64,000 bases of DNA. Origin: an uncultured Bacilli bacterium. GTDB lineage: Bacteria > Bacillota_I > Bacilli_A > RF39 > UBA660. How positions within the stretch are numbered: position 1 is the first letter of the stretch; each line of letters opens with the position of its first letter. Below are positions 47,726 to 56,615 of this stretch, piece by piece. The translations under genes and the position numbers were made by a program. The DNA lies in contig CAJTUT010000004.1 of assembly GCA_910579455.1 (NCBI GenBank), forward strand, positions 1,906 to 65,905. Reading direction: 5' to 3'. The notes below the pieces were generated by a model that made no database searches, had not been told where the DNA came from, and saw only the letters and a program-made list of their open reading frames with translations.

Positions 47726-48850
47726 ATGATTGTTTTGCAAAAACAAGAAATTGGTCAATTCCTTATTGAAGATCAAAATGACATATTAATCATCAATTGG
47801 CTTTTTTTCGATGGATTAGCATTAGAAAAAAACAAAAAAGGTTTATATGGATATATAGATACAGAAGGAAAATTAAAAATTCCATGGCAGTATAAGGAGG
47901 CTTATCAGTTTTATGAAGGTTTGGCGAGAGTTCAAAATAAAGAAGGTCTATGGGGATATATAGATACAGAAGGTAACCTAAAAATTCCATACCAGTATAA
48001 ATATGGAGCAGATTTCCACGAAGGGTTAGCCCTAGTTAAAATAGAAAATGGATTATATGGATATATAGATAAAGAGGGAAATCCAATAGTAGAATGTCAA
48101 TATGATTTAGCAGGTGATTTTCACGATGGTATGGCAAATGTTCTAGATAATCAGTCTAGGTTGTGGGGGTATATAGATAAAGAAGGGAATCAAATAATAG
48201 AATGTCAATATGATTTAGCAGGTGATTTTCACGATGGTATGGCAGAAGTTGGAAATAGTAAAAAATGGGGAAGATTACTTGGATATATAGATAAAAATGG
48301 GAAGTTGGTAATTCCATATCAATATTACAATGCATGGGATTTTCGTAATGGTATGGCACGAGTTGGAAATTCCCATGGCTTAGAAGGCTATATAAATAAA
48401 AAAGGAACTATGATACTCCCATATCAATATAATTTTTTATGTGCAAGTAATTTTCAAAATGGGTTAGCCCTAGTTAAAATAGAAAAAGGATTATATGGAT
48501 ATATAGATAAAGAAGGTAACCTAAAAATTCCATATCAGTATAAACAGGCAACCAGTTTTTATGAAGATTTAGCATGTGTTCAAAATAAAGAAGGCCTATG
48601 GGAATATATAGATACAGAGGGAAATTTGAAAATTTTATGTCCAGATTATAAAGATATATATCCTTTTTGGGATGATTTTGCCCTAGTTAAAAATAATAAA
48701 GGCTATGGATACATAGATAAAGATGGAGATCAGGTAGTTCAATGTCAATATAAAGATGCACATTATTTTCACAATAATGCCTCTATTGTCGTAGATAATA
48801 ATAATAATAAATTTGTTCTAAGAAAAGGAATCAAAAATATTTCAGTCTAG
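47726..48850 (+). CDS. WG-repeat (KWG) protein
   Basis: About ten repeats of roughly 36 aa with the pattern F.EGLA.V....GLWGYIDKEGN..IP.QY. No signal peptide. Confidence 0.85.
   Translation: MIVLQKQEIGQFLIEDQNDILIINWLFFDGLALEKNKKGLYGYIDTEGKLKIPWQYKEAYQFYEGLARVQNKEGLWGYIDTEGNLKIPYQYKYGADFHEGLALVKIENGLYGYIDKEGNPIVECQYDLAGDFHDGMANVLDNQSRLWGYIDKEGNQIIECQYDLAGDFHDGMAEVGNSKKWGRLLGYIDKNGKLVIPYQYYNAWDFRNGMARVGNSHGLEGYINKKGTMILPYQYNFLCASNFQNGLALVKIEKGLYGYIDKEGNLKIPYQYKQATSFYEDLACVQNKEGLWEYIDTEGNLKILCPDYKDIYPFWDDFALVKNNKGYGYIDKDGDQVVQCQYKDAHYFHNNASIVVDNNNNKFVLRKGIKNISV
48090..48244 (+). repeat. perfect 47-nt direct repeat inside the WG-repeat gene
   Basis: TAGAATGTCAATATGATTTAGCAGGTGATTTTCACGATGGTATGGCA occurs at 48090-48136 and again at 48198-48244. 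The 108-nt period is one protein repeat. Confidence 0.85.
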
Positions 48851-50471: not shown

Positions 50472-51401
50472 ATGTTAAGGAAAAAAGCAATTCGAAAAAT
50501 ATTTATAACAACACTAACTGCATTTATTTTATTAGTAGTATACTCAATCCCAAATATGATAGAAGAGGAAAAAACTATTAAAACAAACCTAGAAGTAGAA
50601 TATATATCAGGTCTTGGAACTAATAATATTTATTTGTTAGATCAAAATGATTACTTAGTAAAAACTAATATTTTACTAGATAAGAAAGACAAAGTGGAAC
50701 AAATAAAATTACTACTTTCTAACTTAATAAAACATGATAATTCAAAATTCCCAAATGGATTAAGGGCAACTATTCCAGCTAATACAAAGGTCATTGATGT
50801 AATTTATGATGAGGGATATGTCACCATAAACTTTAGTAAAAGGTTTTTAAATGTTGATTCAGAATTAAAAGATCGAATGATGGAGTCAGTCGTTTATAGT
50901 ATTATGGATTTAGGTGATATTAAAGGGGTGATCATTGAGGTAGAAGAAGAAATATTAAAAGATTATAATAGAGTGTTAGATAGGAGTATGGGAATTAATA
51001 GGAAATATAATATTAAATCGAGAAATAAAATTAATAAAGTTGTGGTTTATTATTTAGAAGAAATTGAGAATAATAAATATTATGTTCCGGTTACTAAGTA
51101 TTTAAATGACGATAGAGATAAAATTAAAATAATTGTGGATGAACTTACCACCAGTTATATCTATGAGCCTAATTTGATGAGCTTTTTTAACAGCAATACT
51201 AAGCTTTTGGGCCACGAGGAAAAAGAGAATATCATGTCAATTAACTTTAACCAGGCTATTTTTGACCGAGATCATAAGGTAGTAGAGGAAGTTAAATATA
51301 CTCTCGCTTATTCTATATTTGATAATTATGATGTGAATCAAATTTTACTACAAGTAGATGGCAAAAATATAGAGACGATTGGAAAAAAAGACCTTCCGTA
51401 A
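50472..51401 (+). CDS. gerM: GerM-domain (GerMN) lipoprotein-like protein
   Basis: N-terminal anchor with two GerMN-like halves. Lies next to other sporulation genes. Confidence 0.6.
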   Translation: MLRKKAIRKIFITTLTAFILLVVYSIPNMIEEEKTIKTNLEVEYISGLGTNNIYLLDQNDYLVKTNILLDKKDKVEQIKLLLSNLIKHDNSKFPNGLRATIPANTKVIDVIYDEGYVTINFSKRFLNVDSELKDRMMESVVYSIMDLGDIKGVIIEVEEEILKDYNRVLDRSMGINRKYNIKSRNKINKVVVYYLEEIENNKYYVPVTKYLNDDRDKIKIIVDELTTSYIYEPNLMSFFNSNTKLLGHEEKENIMSINFNQAIFDRDHKVVEEVKYTLAYSIFDNYDVNQILLQVDGKNIETIGKKDLP

Positions 51402-51940
51402 ATTTTGATAGAGTATATAATAAGTCCTAGCTCATATTTCAGGGTTGGATGATGACGGAACAAAGGATCAATATATCAGGTTACTTGAGTTAATGTTGAT
51501 CAATAAGAATAAATAACCCTGAAAGAATAGAAAACAAAAGATTGAAGGGGCTAATTGCCCAGCAGCAGTATATGTAATTTTAAATCGGGATCAAGAAATA
51601 AGAAAGATTGTTCTTTTTTGATGGAGAGATTCGGTATAAATTGGATCCAAACTATATGAGGCAAGGATATATAATGTAAGCAGTGGAAAAGTTCTAAAAG
51701 CCAGTTCAAAAAGTTATTTTTTGTAATTGACAAGGATAATAAGGAATTCAAAAAATTTGCCAAGAAATTAAGATTTCAGAGAAATAAAAGAATAGGGTAG
51801 GCAAAGATTTACGTAAATTTTTAGACTAAATTCCGTTTTTAAATGAAATATTCAAACTATAAGACTTATTTCAGTTTTTTTATTATAAACAGAATTTCAA
51901 ATTAAATTTTAGGGTTGCAAAATATTTATCAAAAAAGTAC

Positions 51941-51969
51941 TTGAAACCTTCCTATTTTTGTTGTATAAT
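51941..51969 (+). promoter_or_regulatory. consensus sigma-A promoter of tRNA-Arg
   Basis: TTGAAA, a 17-nt spacer, then TATAAT. Sits about 20 nt upstream of the tRNA 5' end. Confidence 0.7.
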
Positions 51970-51990
51970 CTTATGTGTCAACAAAATTCT

Positions 51991-52067
51991 GTCTGCGTAG
52001 CTCAGCTGGATAGAGCAATCGCCTTCTAAGCGATCGGTCAGGCGTTCGAGTCGCCTCGCGGACACCA
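51991..52067 (+). tRNA. tRNA-Arg (anticodon TCT), CCA encoded
   Basis: Acceptor stem GTCTGCG/CGCGGAC, D arm TAGCTCAGCTGGATAGAGC, anticodon loop CTTCTAA, T arm GGCGTTCGAGTCGCC, then ACCA. Confidence 0.9.
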
Positions 52068-52077
52068 CTTAAAGATT

Positions 52078-52103
52078 AACTCTTGTAATACAAGAGTTTT
52101 TTT
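52078..52103 (+). terminator. rho-independent terminator after the tRNA
   Basis: AACTCTTG-5 nt-CAAGAGTT followed by a T run. Confidence 0.8.
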
Positions 52104-52170
52104 GTGATTTTTCTTGCGTTTATTTAAGACGTGTGATATAATATGCAACTAAGAGAGGGGGGGATATTAT

Positions 52171-52347
52171 ATGACATATAAAATGCAATATATTGAAAAC
52201 AGGAGGAAAATGATAGCAATTTCATTGATAGGAATTATATTATTTTGTAGTATGTTTTTACTAAACTATTGTTTTAACTACAAGACTGCAGCTACCAATA
52301 CAGATGTAAAAACAAATGCCTCTGGTGCTATGGAAACTACTAAGTAA
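52171..52347 (+). CDS. 58-aa single-pass membrane peptide (candidate immunity or other bacteriocin-locus protein)
   Basis: Not in the ORF track. An extended -10 TGATATAAT lies upstream and the RBS is a G7 tract (52157-52163). Sequence: MTYKMQYIENRRKMIAISLIGIILFCSMFLLNYCFNYKTAATNTDVKTNASGAMETTK. Confidence 0.45.
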   Translation: MTYKMQYIENRRKMIAISLIGIILFCSMFLLNYCFNYKTAATNTDVKTNASGAMETTK

Positions 52348-52501
52348 AATTACTAGTAACAGCAAGAATAAGAATTGTAGATTCATTTGAATAAAAAGGG
52401 ATGATAAGATATTATACAAAATGTAAATTTGTATAATATCTTAATTTTTTTAGGAAAAATGTTCAACTTCTACTAATAATATGGTAGGAGGTAAAATAAG
52501 A

Positions 52502-54565
52502 ATGAAAGTGGTATTACAGGATGGCATTAAAGATTGTGGAATTTGTTGCCTTCTTTCTATTATCAAGCACTATAATGGAAAAGTATCAAAAGAATATTTA
52601 AGGCAATTAACAAACACAACTAAGAATGGGGTATCCCTATTTAATTTATTAGAGGCATCAAAGAAAATAGGATTTGAAGTAGAAGCCGTAAAAGGCGATA
52701 TAGAAAAAATTAATGCAGATAACTTACCCTGTATCGCACATGTAATTATAAATAAAAGCCATCATCATTTTATAGTAATTTATAAAATAGATGAGGTTGG
52801 TCAAAAAATCTTAGTTATGGATCCTTCCCAAGGAAAAAGAACTTTTTCTACTTCAGAGTTTAAGTTGATGACTAGTAATCATTATTTGTTTTTAAAACCC
52901 ATTCAAAAATTACCAATATTTCATGATAATAAAATAATTAGAAAATCAATTTGTTTATTTCTAAAAAAGAAGAAGCATTATATATTATTTCTTTTCTTCT
53001 TAACTATATTTTACTTTGTATTTAATGTCTTTTCTTCTTATCATTTTAAATATTTAATTGATTATGGCATTAACTATAATACAAGTAATAACTTAGGACT
53101 CATAAGTTTTGTAGTTTTATTTATTTACTTATTAAAAGAATTCTCATCCCTTTTCAGAAAAATATTATTATTGAAATATGGTCTATTGTTTGATCAAAGT
53201 ATTACCATAAAAACACTCAATCAGCTTATTTTACTTCCTTATCTTTATTATAAAAATAGGACAACAGGGGAGGTTATCACAAGAGTTAAAGATCTGTCTA
53301 TAATCAAAGAGTATTTAACGTTAGTTCTTTTATTTGTTACTACAGATCTTGTTAGTATCCTAATTTTTATAATTCTCTTATTTAATATCAATAAAAAACT
53401 TTCTGTAATAGCACTATTCTTATTATTGTTTTTGATTTTAATTAGCATTGTTTTTAAAAGGATAGCAAAGCAAAAAACGGAAAGACTATATCGAGAGGAG
53501 GAACAGATCAATTCATTTTTAATTGAAACATTATCTAGTGTAGAAGCAATTAAGGGAATGCATATAGAATTTCGTATCATTAAGAAATTTATTAGAAAGT
53601 ATAGAAATTTTTTAAGCTCTCTGTACTCTTTATCACTAACATCCGAAGTAGTTGTAGTATTAAAAAGTATAGTCTATAATATATTTATGGTGATTATTTT
53701 ATATTATGGATCAAGTTATATAATAAAAGGTCAAGTAAGTTTAAGTGATATAATCGTATTTCAAAGTATACTGAGTTTTTATACTAACTCTTTTCAAAGC
53801 CTAATTAATATTATTACAGAATATCCCAGATATAAAGTAGCAAGTGAAAGGATAGAAGATTTATTTACTATCAAAAAAGAAGTATTCCAAGGAGGTAATT
53901 ATTATAAATTATATAGTTTGGAGGGGGATATTTTTTATCATAATTTAACATATTCCTATAATGGAAAACTTCTATTAGATCATATTAATTTAACCATTAG
54001 ATTTGGTGAAAAGATCTTTTTATATGGACCAAGTGGAGTAGGAAAATCAACACTTATAAAAATTTTAATGAGATATATAGAGGTCCCTTTTAATAGTTTA
54101 TCTGTAAATGGGATTGATATAAATCATTATCATTTAGATGTATTAAGGGAACATATTACATATATTTCACAGCAAGAATTTTTATTTAATGATACAATTT
54201 TGAATAATATTAGACTATATCGGAATTTTCCAAAAGAAGAAGTTCAAAAGGTTATGAATTTAACATTAGTTGATGAGGTGGCATCTATGGATAAACTAGT
54301 AGAAGAAAATGGCTTTAATTTTAGTGGAGGGGAAAGACAAAGAATTGTTTTAGCTAGAAGTATTTTAAAGAAAAGTGATATCTATATTTTTGATGAGGCA
54401 TTTAGCCAAATTGATACAATAAGAGAAAGAAAGATACTTTTAAATATATTTGGATATTTAAAAAATAAGACGATTATTGTAATATCTCATCGCTTTGATA
54501 ATAAAGAATTATTTGATAGGGTTATAGCTTTAAAAAACGGACAAATCAATGAAGAAAAATTATGA
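52502..54565 (+). CDS. bacteriocin ABC exporter with N-terminal C39 peptidase domain
   Basis: QDGIKDCGICCL catalytic Cys, HHFIVIYKID...VMDPSQG, six TM helices, Walker A GPSGVGKST, signature FSGGERQR and Walker B IYIFDEA. The start is taken at the ATG at 52502, after AGGAGG. Confidence 0.9.
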   Translation: MKVVLQDGIKDCGICCLLSIIKHYNGKVSKEYLRQLTNTTKNGVSLFNLLEASKKIGFEVEAVKGDIEKINADNLPCIAHVIINKSHHHFIVIYKIDEVGQKILVMDPSQGKRTFSTSEFKLMTSNHYLFLKPIQKLPIFHDNKIIRKSICLFLKKKKHYILFLFFLTIFYFVFNVFSSYHFKYLIDYGINYNTSNNLGLISFVVLFIYLLKEFSSLFRKILLLKYGLLFDQSITIKTLNQLILLPYLYYKNRTTGEVITRVKDLSIIKEYLTLVLLFVTTDLVSILIFIILLFNINKKLSVIALFLLLFLILISIVFKRIAKQKTERLYREEEQINSFLIETLSSVEAIKGMHIEFRIIKKFIRKYRNFLSSLYSLSLTSEVVVVLKSIVYNIFMVIILYYGSSYIIKGQVSLSDIIVFQSILSFYTNSFQSLINIITEYPRYKVASERIEDLFTIKKEVFQGGNYYKLYSLEGDIFYHNLTYSYNGKLLLDHINLTIRFGEKIFLYGPSGVGKSTLIKILMRYIEVPFNSLSVNGIDINHYHLDVLREHITYISQQEFLFNDTILNNIRLYRNFPKEEVQKVMNLTLVDEVASMDKLVEENGFNFSGGERQRIVLARSILKKSDIYIFDEAFSQIDTIRERKILLNIFGYLKNKTIIVISHRFDNKELFDRVIALKNGQINEEKL

Positions 54566-54950
54566 AAAAAACCAATTAATAATTAGTATTAGTTTTATAT
54601 TTATCATTTTATGTACCTTATTTTTAACTCATATCTTTACGTATAGATACCGTAGTTACCAGGTATTAGATTCTATATTAATTAGTAAAAATTACATAAA
54701 ATTAATGATAACAACAAAGGAATTAACATTATTAAAAAAGAGTAATTTTATATTAATTGATAATACAAAAAGAAAAATAGAAATAACTCATGTTCAAAGA
54801 AATGTTTTAAAAAGAAAGGTATCCTATCATGATGTAATAATCAGAGTAAAAACACCTAAAAAATATCATGATGGAGATTATATGAAAGTGACAGTATATG
54901 AACAAAAACGACGTATGATTCATATATTTAAGTCATGTTGGAAGGAGTGA
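54549..54950 (+). CDS. 133-aa single-pass accessory protein (miniature HlyD/LcnD-like?)
   Basis: Overlaps the exporter stop by 17 nt. It has an N-terminal TM helix and a beta-rich basic C-terminus. The position matches that of a bacteriocin accessory protein, but it is about one third of the usual size. Confidence 0.5.
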   Translation: MKKNYEKNQLIISISFIFIILCTLFLTHIFTYRYRSYQVLDSILISKNYIKLMITTKELTLLKKSNFILIDNTKRKIEITHVQRNVLKRKVSYHDVIIRVKTPKKYHDGDYMKVTVYEQKRRMIHIFKSCWKE

Positions 54951-54952
54951 AT

Positions 54953-55093
54953 ATGAAAAGGTTAGATACAAAAGAATTAGAAAGGATAACAGGTGGATTT
55001 TCTACTTGGGCTGCTTTGGGAATTGTGTCAGCAGTATTATTCCTATCAGGAGTATTTGGTGGAATTGTTCATCCTAAATCATGCGGGGAATGA
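54953..55093 (+). CDS. double-glycine-leader bacteriocin precursor A (46 aa)
   Basis: Not in the ORF track. RBS GGAAGGAG. The leader MKRLDTKELERITGG fits the L(-12) E(-8) L(-7) I(-4) G G consensus. The mature peptide is FSTWAALGIVSAVLFLSGVFGGIVHPKSCGE. Confidence 0.8.
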   Translation: MKRLDTKELERITGGFSTWAALGIVSAVLFLSGVFGGIVHPKSCGE

Positions 55094-55263
55094 CACCGAT
55101 CAAAGAGGATACAACAAGAAATATAATAGGTGGTTCCAATTATGTTAGTGGAACTGTAATTAACGCCTTGGTAAATGTAATTAAATTATTGATGGATGCG
55201 GGACAAACAGTTGGCTCTTCTATAAGAAGGGTAGTAGATCATAATGTATGTCCATTAAAGTAA
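55090..55263 (+). CDS. double-glycine-leader bacteriocin precursor B (57 aa)
   Basis: The ATG overlaps the stop of peptide A (ATGA). The leader is MTPIKEDTTRNIIGG. The mature peptide is SNYVSGTVINALVNVIKLLMDAGQTVGSSIRRVVDHNVCPLK, with a GQTVG motif. Confidence 0.65.
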   Translation: MTPIKEDTTRNIIGGSNYVSGTVINALVNVIKLLMDAGQTVGSSIRRVVDHNVCPLK

Positions 55264-55492
55264 TCAGAAATCATAAAAAGATAATATATTATAGTCTAGT
55301 TATTTTAATTCCAGTGTTTTTATATCTATTTTAATTTACCTATTCTATAGGTAATTATTTTGGCATATTTTTAATAAATATTTATAAAATTATATCAAAG
55401 TAGAAAATAAATAAAAAAAATGTCAAAAATCATTGAAAAATAAAGAAAAATTTGTTATAATCATTTTTAGAAAAAGCGAAGGGAGGGATAAG

Positions 55493-55711
55493 ATGGCAAC
55501 TCAAGTCACTGTAAAAAATGGAAATTTGGATATGGCTTTAAAAAAATTTAAACAAAAAGTAGCTAGAGACGGTGTCCCTTCAGAATGTAAAAAAAGAGAA
55601 TGTTATGATAAACCAGGAGTAAGAAGACGTAATGCGAAAAAAGAAGGAATCAAGAATTCTAGAAAGAGAGATAAAAATAGAGATAAGAAAGAACGAAAAA
55701 ATAGAGATTAA
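55493..55711 (+). CDS. rpsU: 30S ribosomal protein S21
   Basis: MATQVTVKNGNLDMALKKFKQKVARDG... with a long Lys/Arg-rich tail. The start is taken at the ATG at 55493, after GGGAGGG. Confidence 0.88.
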   Translation: MATQVTVKNGNLDMALKKFKQKVARDGVPSECKKRECYDKPGVRRRNAKKEGIKNSRKRDKNRDKKERKNRD

Positions 55712-55810
55712 TTAAAATCTCTATTTTTTTCAACCTGAGAATACTTCATAAATATAAATATCTAGCTAATTAGAAGGTTTAGGTGTATAATATATAAGGA
55801 GAGTGATAAA

Positions 55811-56254
55811 ATGGAATTAGTAGAAAAATTGAAAAATGATATGATTGGTGCTATGAAAGCAAAAGATAAGGAACGACTTACTGTAATTCGAATGGTGAAA
55901 GCGGCTTTAGATAAAGAACGAATTGATAAAAAAGTAGAGATTAATGATGGATTATTAATTGATGTAGTAAATAAACAAGTAAAATTACGTAAAGACTCTA
56001 TCGAGGAGTTTAAAAAGGCATCCAGGACAGACTTAATAGAAAAAACAGAACACGAGTTGAATGTATTGATGGATTATTTACCAGAACCATTAAGTAAAGA
56101 AGAGGTAGACAGAATTATAGAAGAAGAGATTAAAAATGTGAATGCAGAAAGTATCAAAGATATGGGAAAAATAATGAAACAAGTAACCCCCAGAGTAAAA
56201 GGAAAATTTGATATGAGACAAGTTAGCGAGATTATAAAAAAGAAACTGAATTGA
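55811..56254 (+). CDS. yqeY: GatB/YqeY domain protein
   Basis: 147 aa with LKNDMIGAMKAKDKERLTVIRMVKAAL. Conserved position after rpsU. Confidence 0.88.
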   Translation: MELVEKLKNDMIGAMKAKDKERLTVIRMVKAALDKERIDKKVEINDGLLIDVVNKQVKLRKDSIEEFKKASRTDLIEKTEHELNVLMDYLPEPLSKEEVDRIIEEEIKNVNAESIKDMGKIMKQVTPRVKGKFDMRQVSEIIKKKLN

Positions 56255-56372
56255 TCCTTAGATGGTTAATTCTTTTTTATTGAAAGAGAAATGAATTATT
56301 ATATTCCAATTTATTTTCCTTTTTAAACGACTTATTCTTGTTGCAAAAACATATCCTTAATTAGGTGATAGA

Positions 56373-56615
56373 ATGTTTCAGTCTATAAAAAATTATATCA
56401 ATGATAATGAATTTAAGTTGACTGTATTTGAAGATAGAGTCTATGTAGCAAATTATCTAAAAATTATTTCTTTGGAAGATGAGAGAATCTCATTTTTGAC
56501 ACAGAAAGGGAGAATTATCATTAAGGGAAATAATTTATGCCTAAATAAATTATTAGAAGACGAGGTTTTAATCAGTGGAAGAGTATCTAATATTGAGGTA
56601 GATTTTAATGAATAG
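56373..56615 (+). CDS. yqfC: sporulation protein YqfC
   Basis: 80 aa with the YabP/YqfC pattern. Immediately upstream of and overlapping yqfD. Confidence 0.75.
   Translation: MFQSIKNYINDNEFKLTVFEDRVYVANYLKIISLEDERISFLTQKGRIIIKGNNLCLNKLLEDEVLISGRVSNIEVDFNE

What the first reader, a model, noticed from the sequence alone, without database searches (positions are those of the whole stretch)
54953..55263. Two overlapping double-glycine-leader peptide genes, a candidate novel two-peptide (class IIb-like) bacteriocin
Directly after the exporter and accessory genes lie a 46-aa ORF, missed by the ORF track, and a 57-aa ORF. The second ATG overlaps the first stop (ATGA at 55090-55093).

Peptide A has a near-perfect 15-aa GG leader (MKRLDTKELERITGG). 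Its mature peptide is 31 aa and hydrophobic, with small-xxx-small motifs (SGVFGG).

Peptide B has a leader of the same length (MTPIKEDTTRNIIGG). Its mature peptide is 42 aa and amphipathic, with GQTVG.

Each mature peptide carries exactly one Cys, 3 and 4 residues from its C-terminus (KSCGE and NVCPLK). This raises the possibility of an intermolecular disulfide-linked heterodimer. I do not recognise either mature sequence as a known bacteriocin.
Basis: partly seen in the sequence, partly recalled or inferred. Interest (0 to 1): 0.7.

Follow-up and report, generated by a model that had tools for sequence, protein, structure and literature searches.

The report
Conserved two-peptide double-glycine secretion cassette
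The two small overlapping genes are real and encode a pair of exported peptides resembling a two-peptide bacteriocin, but the pair is inherited vertically next to a ribosomal-protein gene in many uncultured gut Bacilli, which is unusual for a bacteriocin.

Summary
pepA (54953-55093, 46 aa) and pepB (55090-55263, 57 aa) overlap by ATGA. They follow a C39-peptidase ABC exporter and a 133-aa single-pass membrane protein.

Both peptides are genuine genes. The order exporter, 133-aa protein, pepA, pepB, rpsU recurs in 55 species-level genomes of uncultured gut Bacilli and in more distant relatives. Leaders across species are canonical double-glycine leaders. Each mature peptide keeps an invariant GxxxG motif and one C-terminal Cys. 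Charged residues inside the two GxxxG motifs co-vary, which suggests the two helices touch.

No curated family or paper describes pepB. pepA only just passes the lactobin A/cerein 7B model.

Several features are atypical for a bacteriocin:
- Mature pepB is as conserved as the housekeeping protein YqeY, and more conserved than its own leader.
- The peptides are near neutral in charge.
- There are no plasmid or phage copies.

I also found a third small membrane ORF (orf3) in the usual immunity-gene position. It is missing in about 40% of species and carries a fixed nonsense mutation in this genome.

Best reading: a new family of class IIb-like two-peptide exported heterodimers. Killing activity is unproven.

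The parts
52171..52347 (+). up58: 58-aa single-pass membrane ORF upstream of the exporter. It is lineage-specific, and its membership of the cassette is uncertain.
   Evidence: It has a strong Shine-Dalgarno sequence (GAGGGGGGG) and an extended -10 box, TGATATAAT. Homologues were found in only 6 sources, including L015. It has no family hit.
52405..52443 (+). Perfect 16-bp hairpin followed by a U-run, between up58 and the exporter gene. It looks like a terminator or attenuator.
   Evidence: Folding energy is -15.5 kcal/mol, z = -5.05, and 0 of 200 shuffles fold as well. Sequence.
52502..54565 (+). Peptidase-C39 ABC exporter of the PCAT/AMS type. Start 52502 gives 687 aa. The mechanical ORF list starts it at 52481 (694 aa).
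   Evidence: Pfam hits: Peptidase_C39 3e-32, ABC_membrane 5e-31, ABC_tran 2e-25. TIGR01193 scores 372.6 bits, below its cut-off of 523.85. Q13, C19, H96 and D114 are invariant in 48 homologues. An AGGAGG lies 8 nt before ATG 52502. Homologues are called at 687 aa.
54549..54950 (+). acc133: a 133-aa protein with an N-terminal transmembrane helix and a beta-rich domain. It overlaps the exporter's stop and is the probable export accessory.
   Evidence: Present in 69 of 72 sources. Its divergence tracks the exporter's (rho 0.74). It has a conserved C-terminal (I/L)F..W(K/E)(E/G) motif. Eight of 19 members weakly hit NF045999, the MAG1140 family (best E 2e-4). Only the transmembrane helix is modelled with confidence.
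54953..55093 (+). pepA precursor. Leader 54953-54997, mature 31-aa peptide 54998-55090. The mature peptide is a hydrophobic helix with G18xxxG22 and P..C.
   Evidence: TIGR03949 scores 26.3 bits against a cut-off of 21.5. Homologues P0005-P0015. The motif G[VIL]xxG..P..C is present in 54 of 54 species.
55090..55263 (+). pepB precursor. Leader 55090-55134, mature 42-aa peptide 55135-55260. The mature peptide is an amphipathic helix with AGxxxG, IRR and C-P-L-K.
   Evidence: Family of 283 clusters at 90% identity and 316 at 50%. Motif invariant in 55 of 55 species. AlphaFold2 gives one helix, residues 21-49, with mean pLDDT 66 for the whole model (about 81-82 over residues 21-40).
55248..55403 (+). 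orf3 pseudogene: a small membrane ORF in the immunity-gene position. It is interrupted by an in-frame TAA at 55332-55334. The conserved Arg of its FLRN motif has also changed to Ile.
   Evidence: An HMM built from 24 homologues scores 38 bits across the stop codon. The nearest other species, L017, has CAA where the window has TAA. The same stop is present in L002-L007, from six samples. Intact copies of 45-59 aa occur in many other species.
55493..55711 (+). rpsU (ribosomal protein S21), the constant downstream neighbour of the cassette. It has its own promoter-like site at 55433-55461.
   Evidence: Ribosomal_S21 1.3e-15. TTGAAA-17-TATAAT with a TG extension. It lies downstream of pepB in 71 of 72 sources.

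Best explanation
pepA and pepB are the two precursors of a class IIb-like two-peptide product.

Proposed mechanism:
1. They are translated in a coupled way from overlapping genes, probably in equal amounts.
2. The C39 peptidase domain of the adjacent ABC exporter recognises their 15-residue double-glycine leaders, cuts after Gly-Gly and exports the peptides. The 133-aa single-pass protein assists.
3. Outside the cell, the hydrophobic 31-aa pepA helix and the amphipathic 42-aa pepB helix pack against each other through their invariant GxxxG motifs.
4. The single Cys near each C-terminus may lock the pair as a disulfide-linked heterodimer of about 7631 Da.
5. The heterodimer acts on a membrane, most probably that of competing bacteria.

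The small membrane ORF after pepB (orf3) is the likeliest immunity or partner protein. It is a pseudogene in this genome.

The cassette belongs to an old, vertically inherited family found in uncultured gut Bacilli.

What is shown: the genes, the leaders, exporter competence, conservation, covariation and synteny. What is inferred: export, pairing, the disulfide and the target.
For: - Gene anatomy, SD sequence and ATGA overlap. The overlap is kept in 35 of 54 species.
- Leaders are canonical across species: -12 I/V/L, -8 E, -7 L, -4 I/V, then GG.
- The exporter has the C39 + 6TM + NBD architecture and an invariant Q/C/H/D set.
- pepA and pepB always co-occur, whichever peptide was used to fetch the locus. 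This holds in remote cassettes L072, L073 and L075.
- GxxxG is invariant in 54 of 54 pepA and 55 of 55 pepB.
- The residue inside pepA's GxxxG is acidic in 47 of 63 pairs. In those pairs the matching pepB residue is basic in 31 and never acidic.
- Where pepA is not acidic, pepB is acidic in 8 of 16 pairs (Fisher 3e-6, uncorrected). On the exporter tree, the 3 independent gains of Glu in pepB all lie in lineages where pepA lost its acid, including a K/E swap in L027.
- The C-terminal Cys is present in every pepA and pepB of the species loci and in 135 of 140 remote pepB relatives.
- pepA passes TIGR03949, the class IIb lactobin A/cerein 7B model.
- A small hydrophobic ORF occupies the immunity-gene position in 34 of 55 species.
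Against: - No activity data exist, and every carrier genome is an uncultured MAG.
- The cassette keeps a fixed position next to rpsU. Its pairwise divergence correlates with that of its housekeeping neighbours, which fits vertical inheritance.
- No plasmid or phage homologues were found.
- Mature pepB is as conserved as YqeY (0.635 against 0.637 mean pairwise identity) and more conserved than the exporter (0.48).
- Mature peptides are more conserved than leaders: 0.53 and 0.65 against about 0.35. From my knowledge of double-glycine-leader families, this is the reverse of the usual pattern.
- The peptides are near neutral: pepA charge 0 or -1, pepB 0 or +1. Class IIb peptides are usually cationic.
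- orf3 is missing or degraded in 21 of 55 species and is a fixed pseudogene here, yet pepA and pepB stay intact.
- The pepB leader in this window lacks the -7 Leu and -8 Glu.
- No thiol oxidoreductase lies in the cassette, and the habitat is anoxic. Disulfide formation is therefore unproven.
Confidence: 0.58

Rival explanations
1. The pair is exported as described but is not a weapon. It serves a conserved physiological or host-directed role: for example a membrane-associated heterodimer acting on the producer's own envelope, or a peptide that acts on the host. That would explain why it behaves like a core gene set.
For: - Fixed synteny with rpsU in 55 species and in remote cassettes.
- Mature pepB is as conserved as YqeY, and mature regions are more conserved than leaders.
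- Near-neutral charge.
- The immunity-like orf3 is dispensable.
- No mobile copies.
- Precedent for gut class II peptides without antibacterial activity that act on the host: bioRxiv 10.64898/2026.07.22.739491.
Against: - All the architectural hallmarks of class IIb bacteriocins are present.
- No receptor, sensor or other partner gene is conserved in the cassette.
- High conservation also occurs in bacteriocins with conserved targets (my own knowledge).
- How universal the cassette is within the clade was not measured.
Confidence: 0.3
2. The peptides are quorum-sensing pheromones of the ComC/BlpC type, processed by a ComA-like exporter.
For: - pepA weakly matches the Pfam ComC family (19.2 bits against a cut-off of 20.4).
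- The exporter is of the same type as ComA.
- In L008 and L009 a response regulator and a histidine kinase follow rpsU.
Against: - No kinase or regulator is conserved next to the cassette in the window or in most loci.
- The ComC match lies in the leader.
- Mature peptides of 31 and 42 residues with GxxxG motifs, one of them a transmembrane-like helix, do not look like pheromones.
- The strong conservation is opposite to the diversification into pherotypes.
Confidence: 0.06
3. In this particular species the system is decaying and is no longer functional, even though the family is functional elsewhere.
For: - orf3 carries a fixed CAA-to-TAA nonsense change and has lost its conserved Arg, in all seven sources of this species.
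- The pepB leader has lost the -7 Leu and -8 Glu.
Against: - The exporter, acc133, pepA and pepB are all intact.
- Mature pepB differs by one residue from P0003 of a near relative, while the leaders differ at six positions.
- L017 shares the odd leader but keeps an intact orf3.
- 21 other species lack orf3 yet keep both peptides.
Confidence: 0.12
4. pepB, or both peptides, are chance ORFs.
For: None beyond their small size. pepB has no family hit.
Against: - 283 to 316 homologous clusters.
- Canonical leaders in relatives.
- Coding-type substitution pattern.
- Conserved position.
Confidence: 0.01

Closest known systems
Class IIb two-peptide bacteriocins (lactococcin G, plantaricin EF/JK, enterocin 1071 and similar)
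   Same: - Two adjacent, co-expressed structural genes.
- Double-glycine leaders of 15 residues.
- A dedicated C39 ABC exporter.
- Mature helical peptides of 30-45 residues.
- A GxxxG motif in both peptides, with evidence that the motifs contact each other.
- A small membrane ORF directly downstream.
   Different: - No sequence similarity to any characterised member.
- Near-neutral rather than cationic.
- One invariant Cys in each peptide. I know of no disulfide-linked class IIb heterodimer (from memory).
- A 133-aa accessory protein instead of the roughly 450-aa HlyD-like one (from memory).
- Chromosomal, vertically inherited and fixed next to rpsU.
- The immunity-like gene is often lost.
Lactobin A/cerein 7B family (NCBIfam TIGR03949)
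   Same: The window's pepA scores 26.3 bits against a cut-off of 21.5, over residues 2-38: the leader plus the small-residue-rich hydrophobic start of the mature peptide.
   Different: The L030 orthologue of pepA scores only 16.2 bits and the remote L072 one gets no hit. The match is dominated by the leader and by composition. pepB has no counterpart in that family.
PCAT/AMS exporters (ComA, LagD, LahT, PCAT1; TIGR01193)
   Same: Same three-domain architecture and the same catalytic Gln/Cys/His/Asp set.
   Different: It scores below the trusted cut-off of TIGR01193: 372.6 against 523.85. It is paired with a short single-pass protein of unknown fold.
Mycoplasma Mbov_0121-type C39 ABC transporter and MAG1140-family small protein (NF045998, NF045999)
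   Same: The exporter scores 300.7 bits on NF045998. Eight of 19 acc133 homologues hit NF045999, collinear from the N-terminus. Mycoplasma C39 exporters have no known double-glycine substrate (PMC6609329).
   Different: Both scores are below the cut-offs (500 and 35). TIGR01193 scores higher than NF045998. The AT-rich composition shared with mycoplasma proteins could inflate the weak hits. Mycoplasma loci could not be inspected here.

Membership tests
Class IIb two-peptide bacteriocin | Two structural peptide genes adjacent in one operon | tested here: met
   ATGA overlap in the window. The pair is adjacent in every locus with sequence available. The overlap or near-abutment is conserved.
Class IIb two-peptide bacteriocin | Double-glycine leader on both precursors | tested here: met
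   Family consensus is -12 I/V/L, -8 E, -7 L, -4 I/V, GG for both peptides. The window's pepB is degenerate at -7 and -8 but keeps -4, -12 and GG.
Class IIb two-peptide bacteriocin | Dedicated ABC exporter with an active C39 peptidase domain | tested here: met
   Pfam domains. Q13, C19, H96 and D114 are invariant in 48 homologues.
Class IIb two-peptide bacteriocin | GxxxG helix-helix motifs in both peptides | tested here: met
   Present in 54 of 54 pepA and 55 of 55 pepB. Charges inside the two motifs co-vary.
Class IIb two-peptide bacteriocin | Immunity gene next to the structural genes | tested here: inconclusive
   orf3 occupies the right position in 34 of 55 species. It is a pseudogene here and is missing in 21 species. 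It has no family hit, and its function is untested.
Class IIb two-peptide bacteriocin | Cationic mature peptides (usual, not strictly defining) | tested here: not met
   pepA charge is 0 or -1 (mean pI 5.95). pepB charge is 0 or +1 (mean pI 7.27). The window's pepB is +2.
Class IIb two-peptide bacteriocin | Antimicrobial activity that needs both peptides in about equal amounts | not testable with these tools
   This requires synthetic or expressed peptides. All carriers are uncultured MAGs.
Lactobin A/cerein 7B family (TIGR03949) | Score at or above the curated cut-off, consistently across orthologues | tested here: inconclusive
   The window's pepA scores 26.3 against 21.5. The L030 orthologue scores 16.2 and the L072 one gets no hit.
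Peptide cleavage/export ABC transporter (TIGR01193) | Score at or above the curated cut-off | tested here: not met
   372.6 bits against a cut-off of 523.85, although the architecture and catalytic residues fit.
Mycoplasma Mbov_0121 / MAG1140 pair (NF045998, NF045999) | Scores at or above the curated cut-offs for both proteins | tested here: not met
   300.7 against 500 for the exporter, and 11.8 against 35 for acc133. The best acc133 homologue reaches E 2e-4. A remote relationship remains possible.
ComC/BlpC-type competence or bacteriocin pheromone | ComC family match and a cognate histidine kinase and response regulator in the locus | tested here: not met
   PF03047 scores 19.2 against 20.4, in the leader only. 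No kinase or regulator lies next to the cassette in the window. They occur only in L008, L009 and L010.

The most novel reading that the evidence does not exclude
The cassette is an ancient core-genome module of uncultured gut Bacilli. Its product is a covalently (Cys-Cys) linked heterodimer of a transmembrane-like helix and an amphipathic helix. It has a conserved function other than killing, for example in the producer's envelope or towards the host. It may also represent the ancestral substrate set of the 'orphan' C39 ABC exporters, paired with MAG1140-like proteins, that mycoplasmas keep without any known double-glycine peptide. That group includes gene 0401 of the minimal cell JCVI-syn3A.
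Probability: 0.18. Interest if true: 0.75.

Novelty: new variant of a known kind. Interest (0 to 1): 0.55.

Why it matters
- It defines a large, uncharacterised family of paired double-glycine peptides. The family has at least 316 clusters at 50% identity and at least 55 species, and no curated model or paper covers it. All known carriers are gut bacteria that nobody has cultured.
- The pair offers a clean natural test of the GxxxG helix-pairing model for two-peptide bacteriocins, because charged residues inside the two motifs co-vary.
- It could be the first disulfide-linked heterodimer of this class.
- Its core-gene-like inheritance questions the habit of annotating every double-glycine peptide next to a C39 exporter as a weapon.
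- If the weak link to the mycoplasma exporters holds, it points to where the missing substrates of those exporters might be sought.

Tried and rejected
The single-sequence model was poor (pLDDT 47.8; only the transmembrane helix is confident), so I ran no fold search.
- The pepB model is one helix of moderate confidence. It is too small for a meaningful fold search.
- A profile search of solved structures gave only ankyrin-repeat false positives for pepB, through the shared KLLLDAGA-like motif. The same artefact produced P0199. Nothing was found for acc133.
- Pfam gave no consistent hit for acc133.
- Literature searches for the peptide motifs, for Mbov_0121/MAG1140, for MMSYN1_0401 and for disulfide-linked two-peptide bacteriocins found nothing relevant.
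- The IIBacFinder paper holds no searchable supplement.
- The contig for P0255 returned no DNA.
- Plasmid and phage collections gave no match.
- Rfam found only the tRNA in 51000-56500.
- A strict leader-pattern scan found no further double-glycine peptide in the window.
- I considered post-translational modification (lanthipeptide or sactipeptide) and rejected it, because no modification enzyme is conserved in the cassette. The weak radical-SAM gene upstream in L008 is not conserved.
- I considered a metal-binding site made of His and Cys and rejected it, because the His is confined to one subclade.

Full report
**Observation.**
- pepA runs from ATG 54953 to TGA 55091-55093, with an AAGGAG Shine-Dalgarno sequence 5 nt upstream. 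It encodes MKRLDTKELERITGG followed by FSTWAALGIVSAVLFLSGVFGGIVHPKSCGE.
- pepB starts at ATG 55090 inside ATGA. It encodes MTPIKEDTTRNIIGG followed by SNYVSGTVINALVNVIKLLMDAGQTVGSSIRRVVDHNVCPLK.
- Upstream lie a Peptidase_C39 + ABC_membrane + ABC_tran protein and a 133-aa protein with an N-terminal membrane helix that overlaps the exporter's stop. The exporter's likely true start is ATG 52502, behind an AGGAGG.
- A tRNA-Arg with its own promoter-like site and terminator-like hairpin lies further upstream. rpsU follows downstream with its own promoter-like site.

**Are the peptides real?** Yes.
- pepB has homologues with fully canonical leaders, for example P0004 with MKKININKLENIIGG. pepA has homologues too.
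- A profile of pepB found 283 clusters at 90% identity. An exhaustive profile search found 316 clusters at 50% identity, 45 of them below E = 1e-10.
- Loci fetched through pepA always contain pepB, and loci fetched through pepB always contain pepA wherever the contig reaches that far.
- Differences between species are concentrated at third codon positions: 0.31/0.18/0.50 per site for pepB and 0.37/0.26/0.54 for pepA.
- The ATGA-type overlap is kept in 35 of 54 species, and most of the others abut within a nucleotide or two.
- The 52-aa reading of pepA from ATG 54935 is explained by the conserved C-terminus of the 133-aa gene in another frame. It is not the true start.

**Family anatomy.**
- Across species both leaders fit the double-glycine consensus: -12 I/V/L, -8 E, -7 L, -4 I/V, then GG. 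The window's pepB is the exception at -7 and -8.
- Every mature pepA carries G[VIL]xxG..P..C. Every mature pepB carries AGxxxG..(I/V/L)(R/K)R, usually IRR, followed by a Cys placed three residues before the end in 50 of 51 distinct pairs.
- Among the 140 remote pepB relatives of normal length, 135 keep a Cys in the last nine residues.
- The exporter's catalytic Gln, Cys, His and Asp are invariant in 48 full-length homologues.
- AlphaFold2 with the family alignment models pepB as one helix, residues 21-49, at moderate confidence.
- The window's mature peptides weigh 3150.6 Da and 4482.2 Da.

**Evidence that the two peptides touch.** I compared the fourth residue of pepA's GxxxG with the first variable residue of pepB's GxxxG.
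- Where the pepA residue is acidic (47 pairs), the pepB residue is basic in 31, other in 16 and never acidic.
- Where the pepA residue is not acidic (16 pairs), the pepB residue is Glu in 8 and basic in 1.
- Fisher's test gives 3e-6 without correction for relatedness.
- On a neighbour-joining tree of the exporter, the three independent gains of Glu in pepB all fall in lineages where pepA had lost its acid. One of them is a Lys/Glu swap in L027.
- This is what the GxxxG helix-packing model for two-peptide bacteriocins predicts. It is suggestive, not proof.

**Distribution and inheritance.**
- A scan of one genome per species found the pepB motif in 55 species. All are uncultured gut MAGs labelled Bacilli, Mycoplasmatota/Tenericutes or Erysipelotrichaceae, including Clostridium sp. 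CAG:417 and Candidatus Faecimonas intestinavium.
- In all of them the order is exporter, 133-aa protein, pepA, pepB, rpsU. There are two kinds of exception. L044 and L047 have an insertion before rpsU. L067 has no detectable exporter nearby.
- The upstream flank varies: GerM plus tRNA, a radical-SAM gene, a sigma-factor-like gene, or a phosphoketolase.
- Remote cassettes keep the same layout near rpsU-yqeY. In L073 and L075 pepB matches only at E = 1e-11 to 1e-9.
- Mean pairwise identities across species are shown in the table.

| Protein | Mean pairwise identity |
|---|---|
| S21 | 0.85 |
| YqeY | 0.64 |
| mature pepB | 0.635 |
| mature pepA | 0.50 |
| exporter | 0.48 |
| 133-aa protein | 0.29 |

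- Pairwise divergence of the cassette proteins correlates with that of the housekeeping neighbours about as well as those neighbours correlate with each other.
- Leaders without the GG are only about 35% identical, less than the mature peptides.
- No homologue exists in the plasmid or phage collections.
- Together this indicates old, vertical inheritance and strong constraint on the mature peptides.

- An ORF begins at an ATG inside the last codons of pepB. In many species it encodes a 45-59 aa membrane protein: MS(F/I/T)(K/R)(I/V), one transmembrane helix, then Y..G.Y.G.FLRN.Y.
- An HMM built from 24 copies detects it in 34 of 55 species. In 21 it is missing or broken.
- In the window it runs 55248-55403 but has an in-frame TAA at 55332-55334. 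The nearest species, L017, has CAA there. The conserved Arg of FLRN has also become Ile.
- The same stop codon is present in six other assemblies of this species, so it is not an assembly error.
- The position is that of an immunity gene, but its frequent loss alongside intact pepA and pepB argues that it is not indispensable. It matches no family.

**Comparison with what is known.**
- pepA passes NCBIfam TIGR03949 (class IIb, lactobin A/cerein 7B) by about 5 bits. An orthologue does not pass.
- pepB and its relatives match no Pfam or NCBIfam model. Its motifs appear in no searchable paper. One source labels a homologue only 'bacteriocin-like protein'.
- The exporter is a PCAT-type protein that scores below the trusted cut-off of TIGR01193.
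- The 133-aa protein has no Pfam hit. Eight of 19 homologues weakly hit the mycoplasma MAG1140 family, and the exporter scores 300 bits on the mycoplasma Mbov_0121 family.
- Mycoplasma C39 exporters, including gene 0401 of JCVI-syn3A, have no known double-glycine substrate (PMC6609329).
- That link is only a lead. The scores are below the cut-offs, and shared AT-rich composition may contribute.

**Interpretation.**
- Every architectural feature of a class IIb two-peptide bacteriocin that can be tested in silico is met. The exceptions are cationic charge and a reliable immunity gene.
- The most probable mechanism is coupled translation, leader cleavage and export by the C39 ABC exporter with the 133-aa protein, then pairing of the two helices through GxxxG. 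The C-terminal Cys pair may lock the heterodimer.
- Whether the heterodimer kills competitors (about 0.5-0.6) or has another conserved role (about 0.3) cannot be decided here.
- The evolutionary pattern is unusual for a bacteriocin: a fixed position, mature peptides more conserved than leaders and as conserved as a housekeeping protein, neutral charge, and a dispensable immunity-like gene.
- In this genome the odd pepB leader and the orf3 pseudogene leave a small chance that the system is decaying.

**Verdict.** This is a new, large, uncharacterised family that works like a class IIb system but behaves like a core gene set. I rate it a new variant of a known kind, of moderate interest.

Noticed in passing
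window 55248-55403: A third small ORF (orf3) overlaps the end of pepB. It is conserved in 34 of 55 species. Here it is interrupted by a fixed CAA-to-TAA change at 55332-55334, and its conserved Arg has been lost.
   Followed up: yes
window 52171-52347: up58 is a 58-aa single-pass membrane ORF with a very strong ribosome-binding site and an extended -10 box. It was found only in this species and L015, and its role is unknown.
   Followed up: partly
window 52405-52443: A perfect AT-rich hairpin (-15.5 kcal/mol, z = -5) followed by a U-run lies between up58 and the exporter gene. The arm also contains a TGTATAAT box. It could be a terminator, an attenuator or an operator.
   Followed up: partly
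window 51991-52067: A tRNA-Arg (TCT) with its own promoter-like site (51941-51969) and terminator-like hairpin (52078-52098) lies just upstream of the cassette. The upstream flank differs between species, so the cassette's left border is variable.
   Followed up: partly
P0203 (93 aa; related to L008/L009): A natural variant fuses the first 37 residues of pepB (up to DAG) to orf3. It looks like a deletion that removes the pepB C-terminus.
   Followed up: no
L067 2500-6600; L044 and L047: L067 keeps pepA, pepB and rpsU but has no exporter or 133-aa gene nearby. L044 and L047 carry 0.75-1.5 kb inserted between orf3 and rpsU. L073 has about 6.7 kb (aldolase and copper-ATPase genes) inserted there.
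   Followed up: partly
L072 492-813: In a distant relative the exporter gene is followed directly by pepA-like and pepB-like genes, with no 133-aa gene. The accessory protein is therefore not universal.
   Followed up: no
window 47726-48850: A 374-aa protein is made of repeated 'GLYGYIDKEGN...' units (WG-type repeats). It has no Pfam hit on record for its homologue in L002.
   Followed up: no
pepB profile searches: The pepB profile picks up ankyrin repeats through the KLLLDAGA-like motif: P0199 and PDB entries 1n0r and 1n0q. These are false positives to filter out in any future family model.
   Followed up: yes
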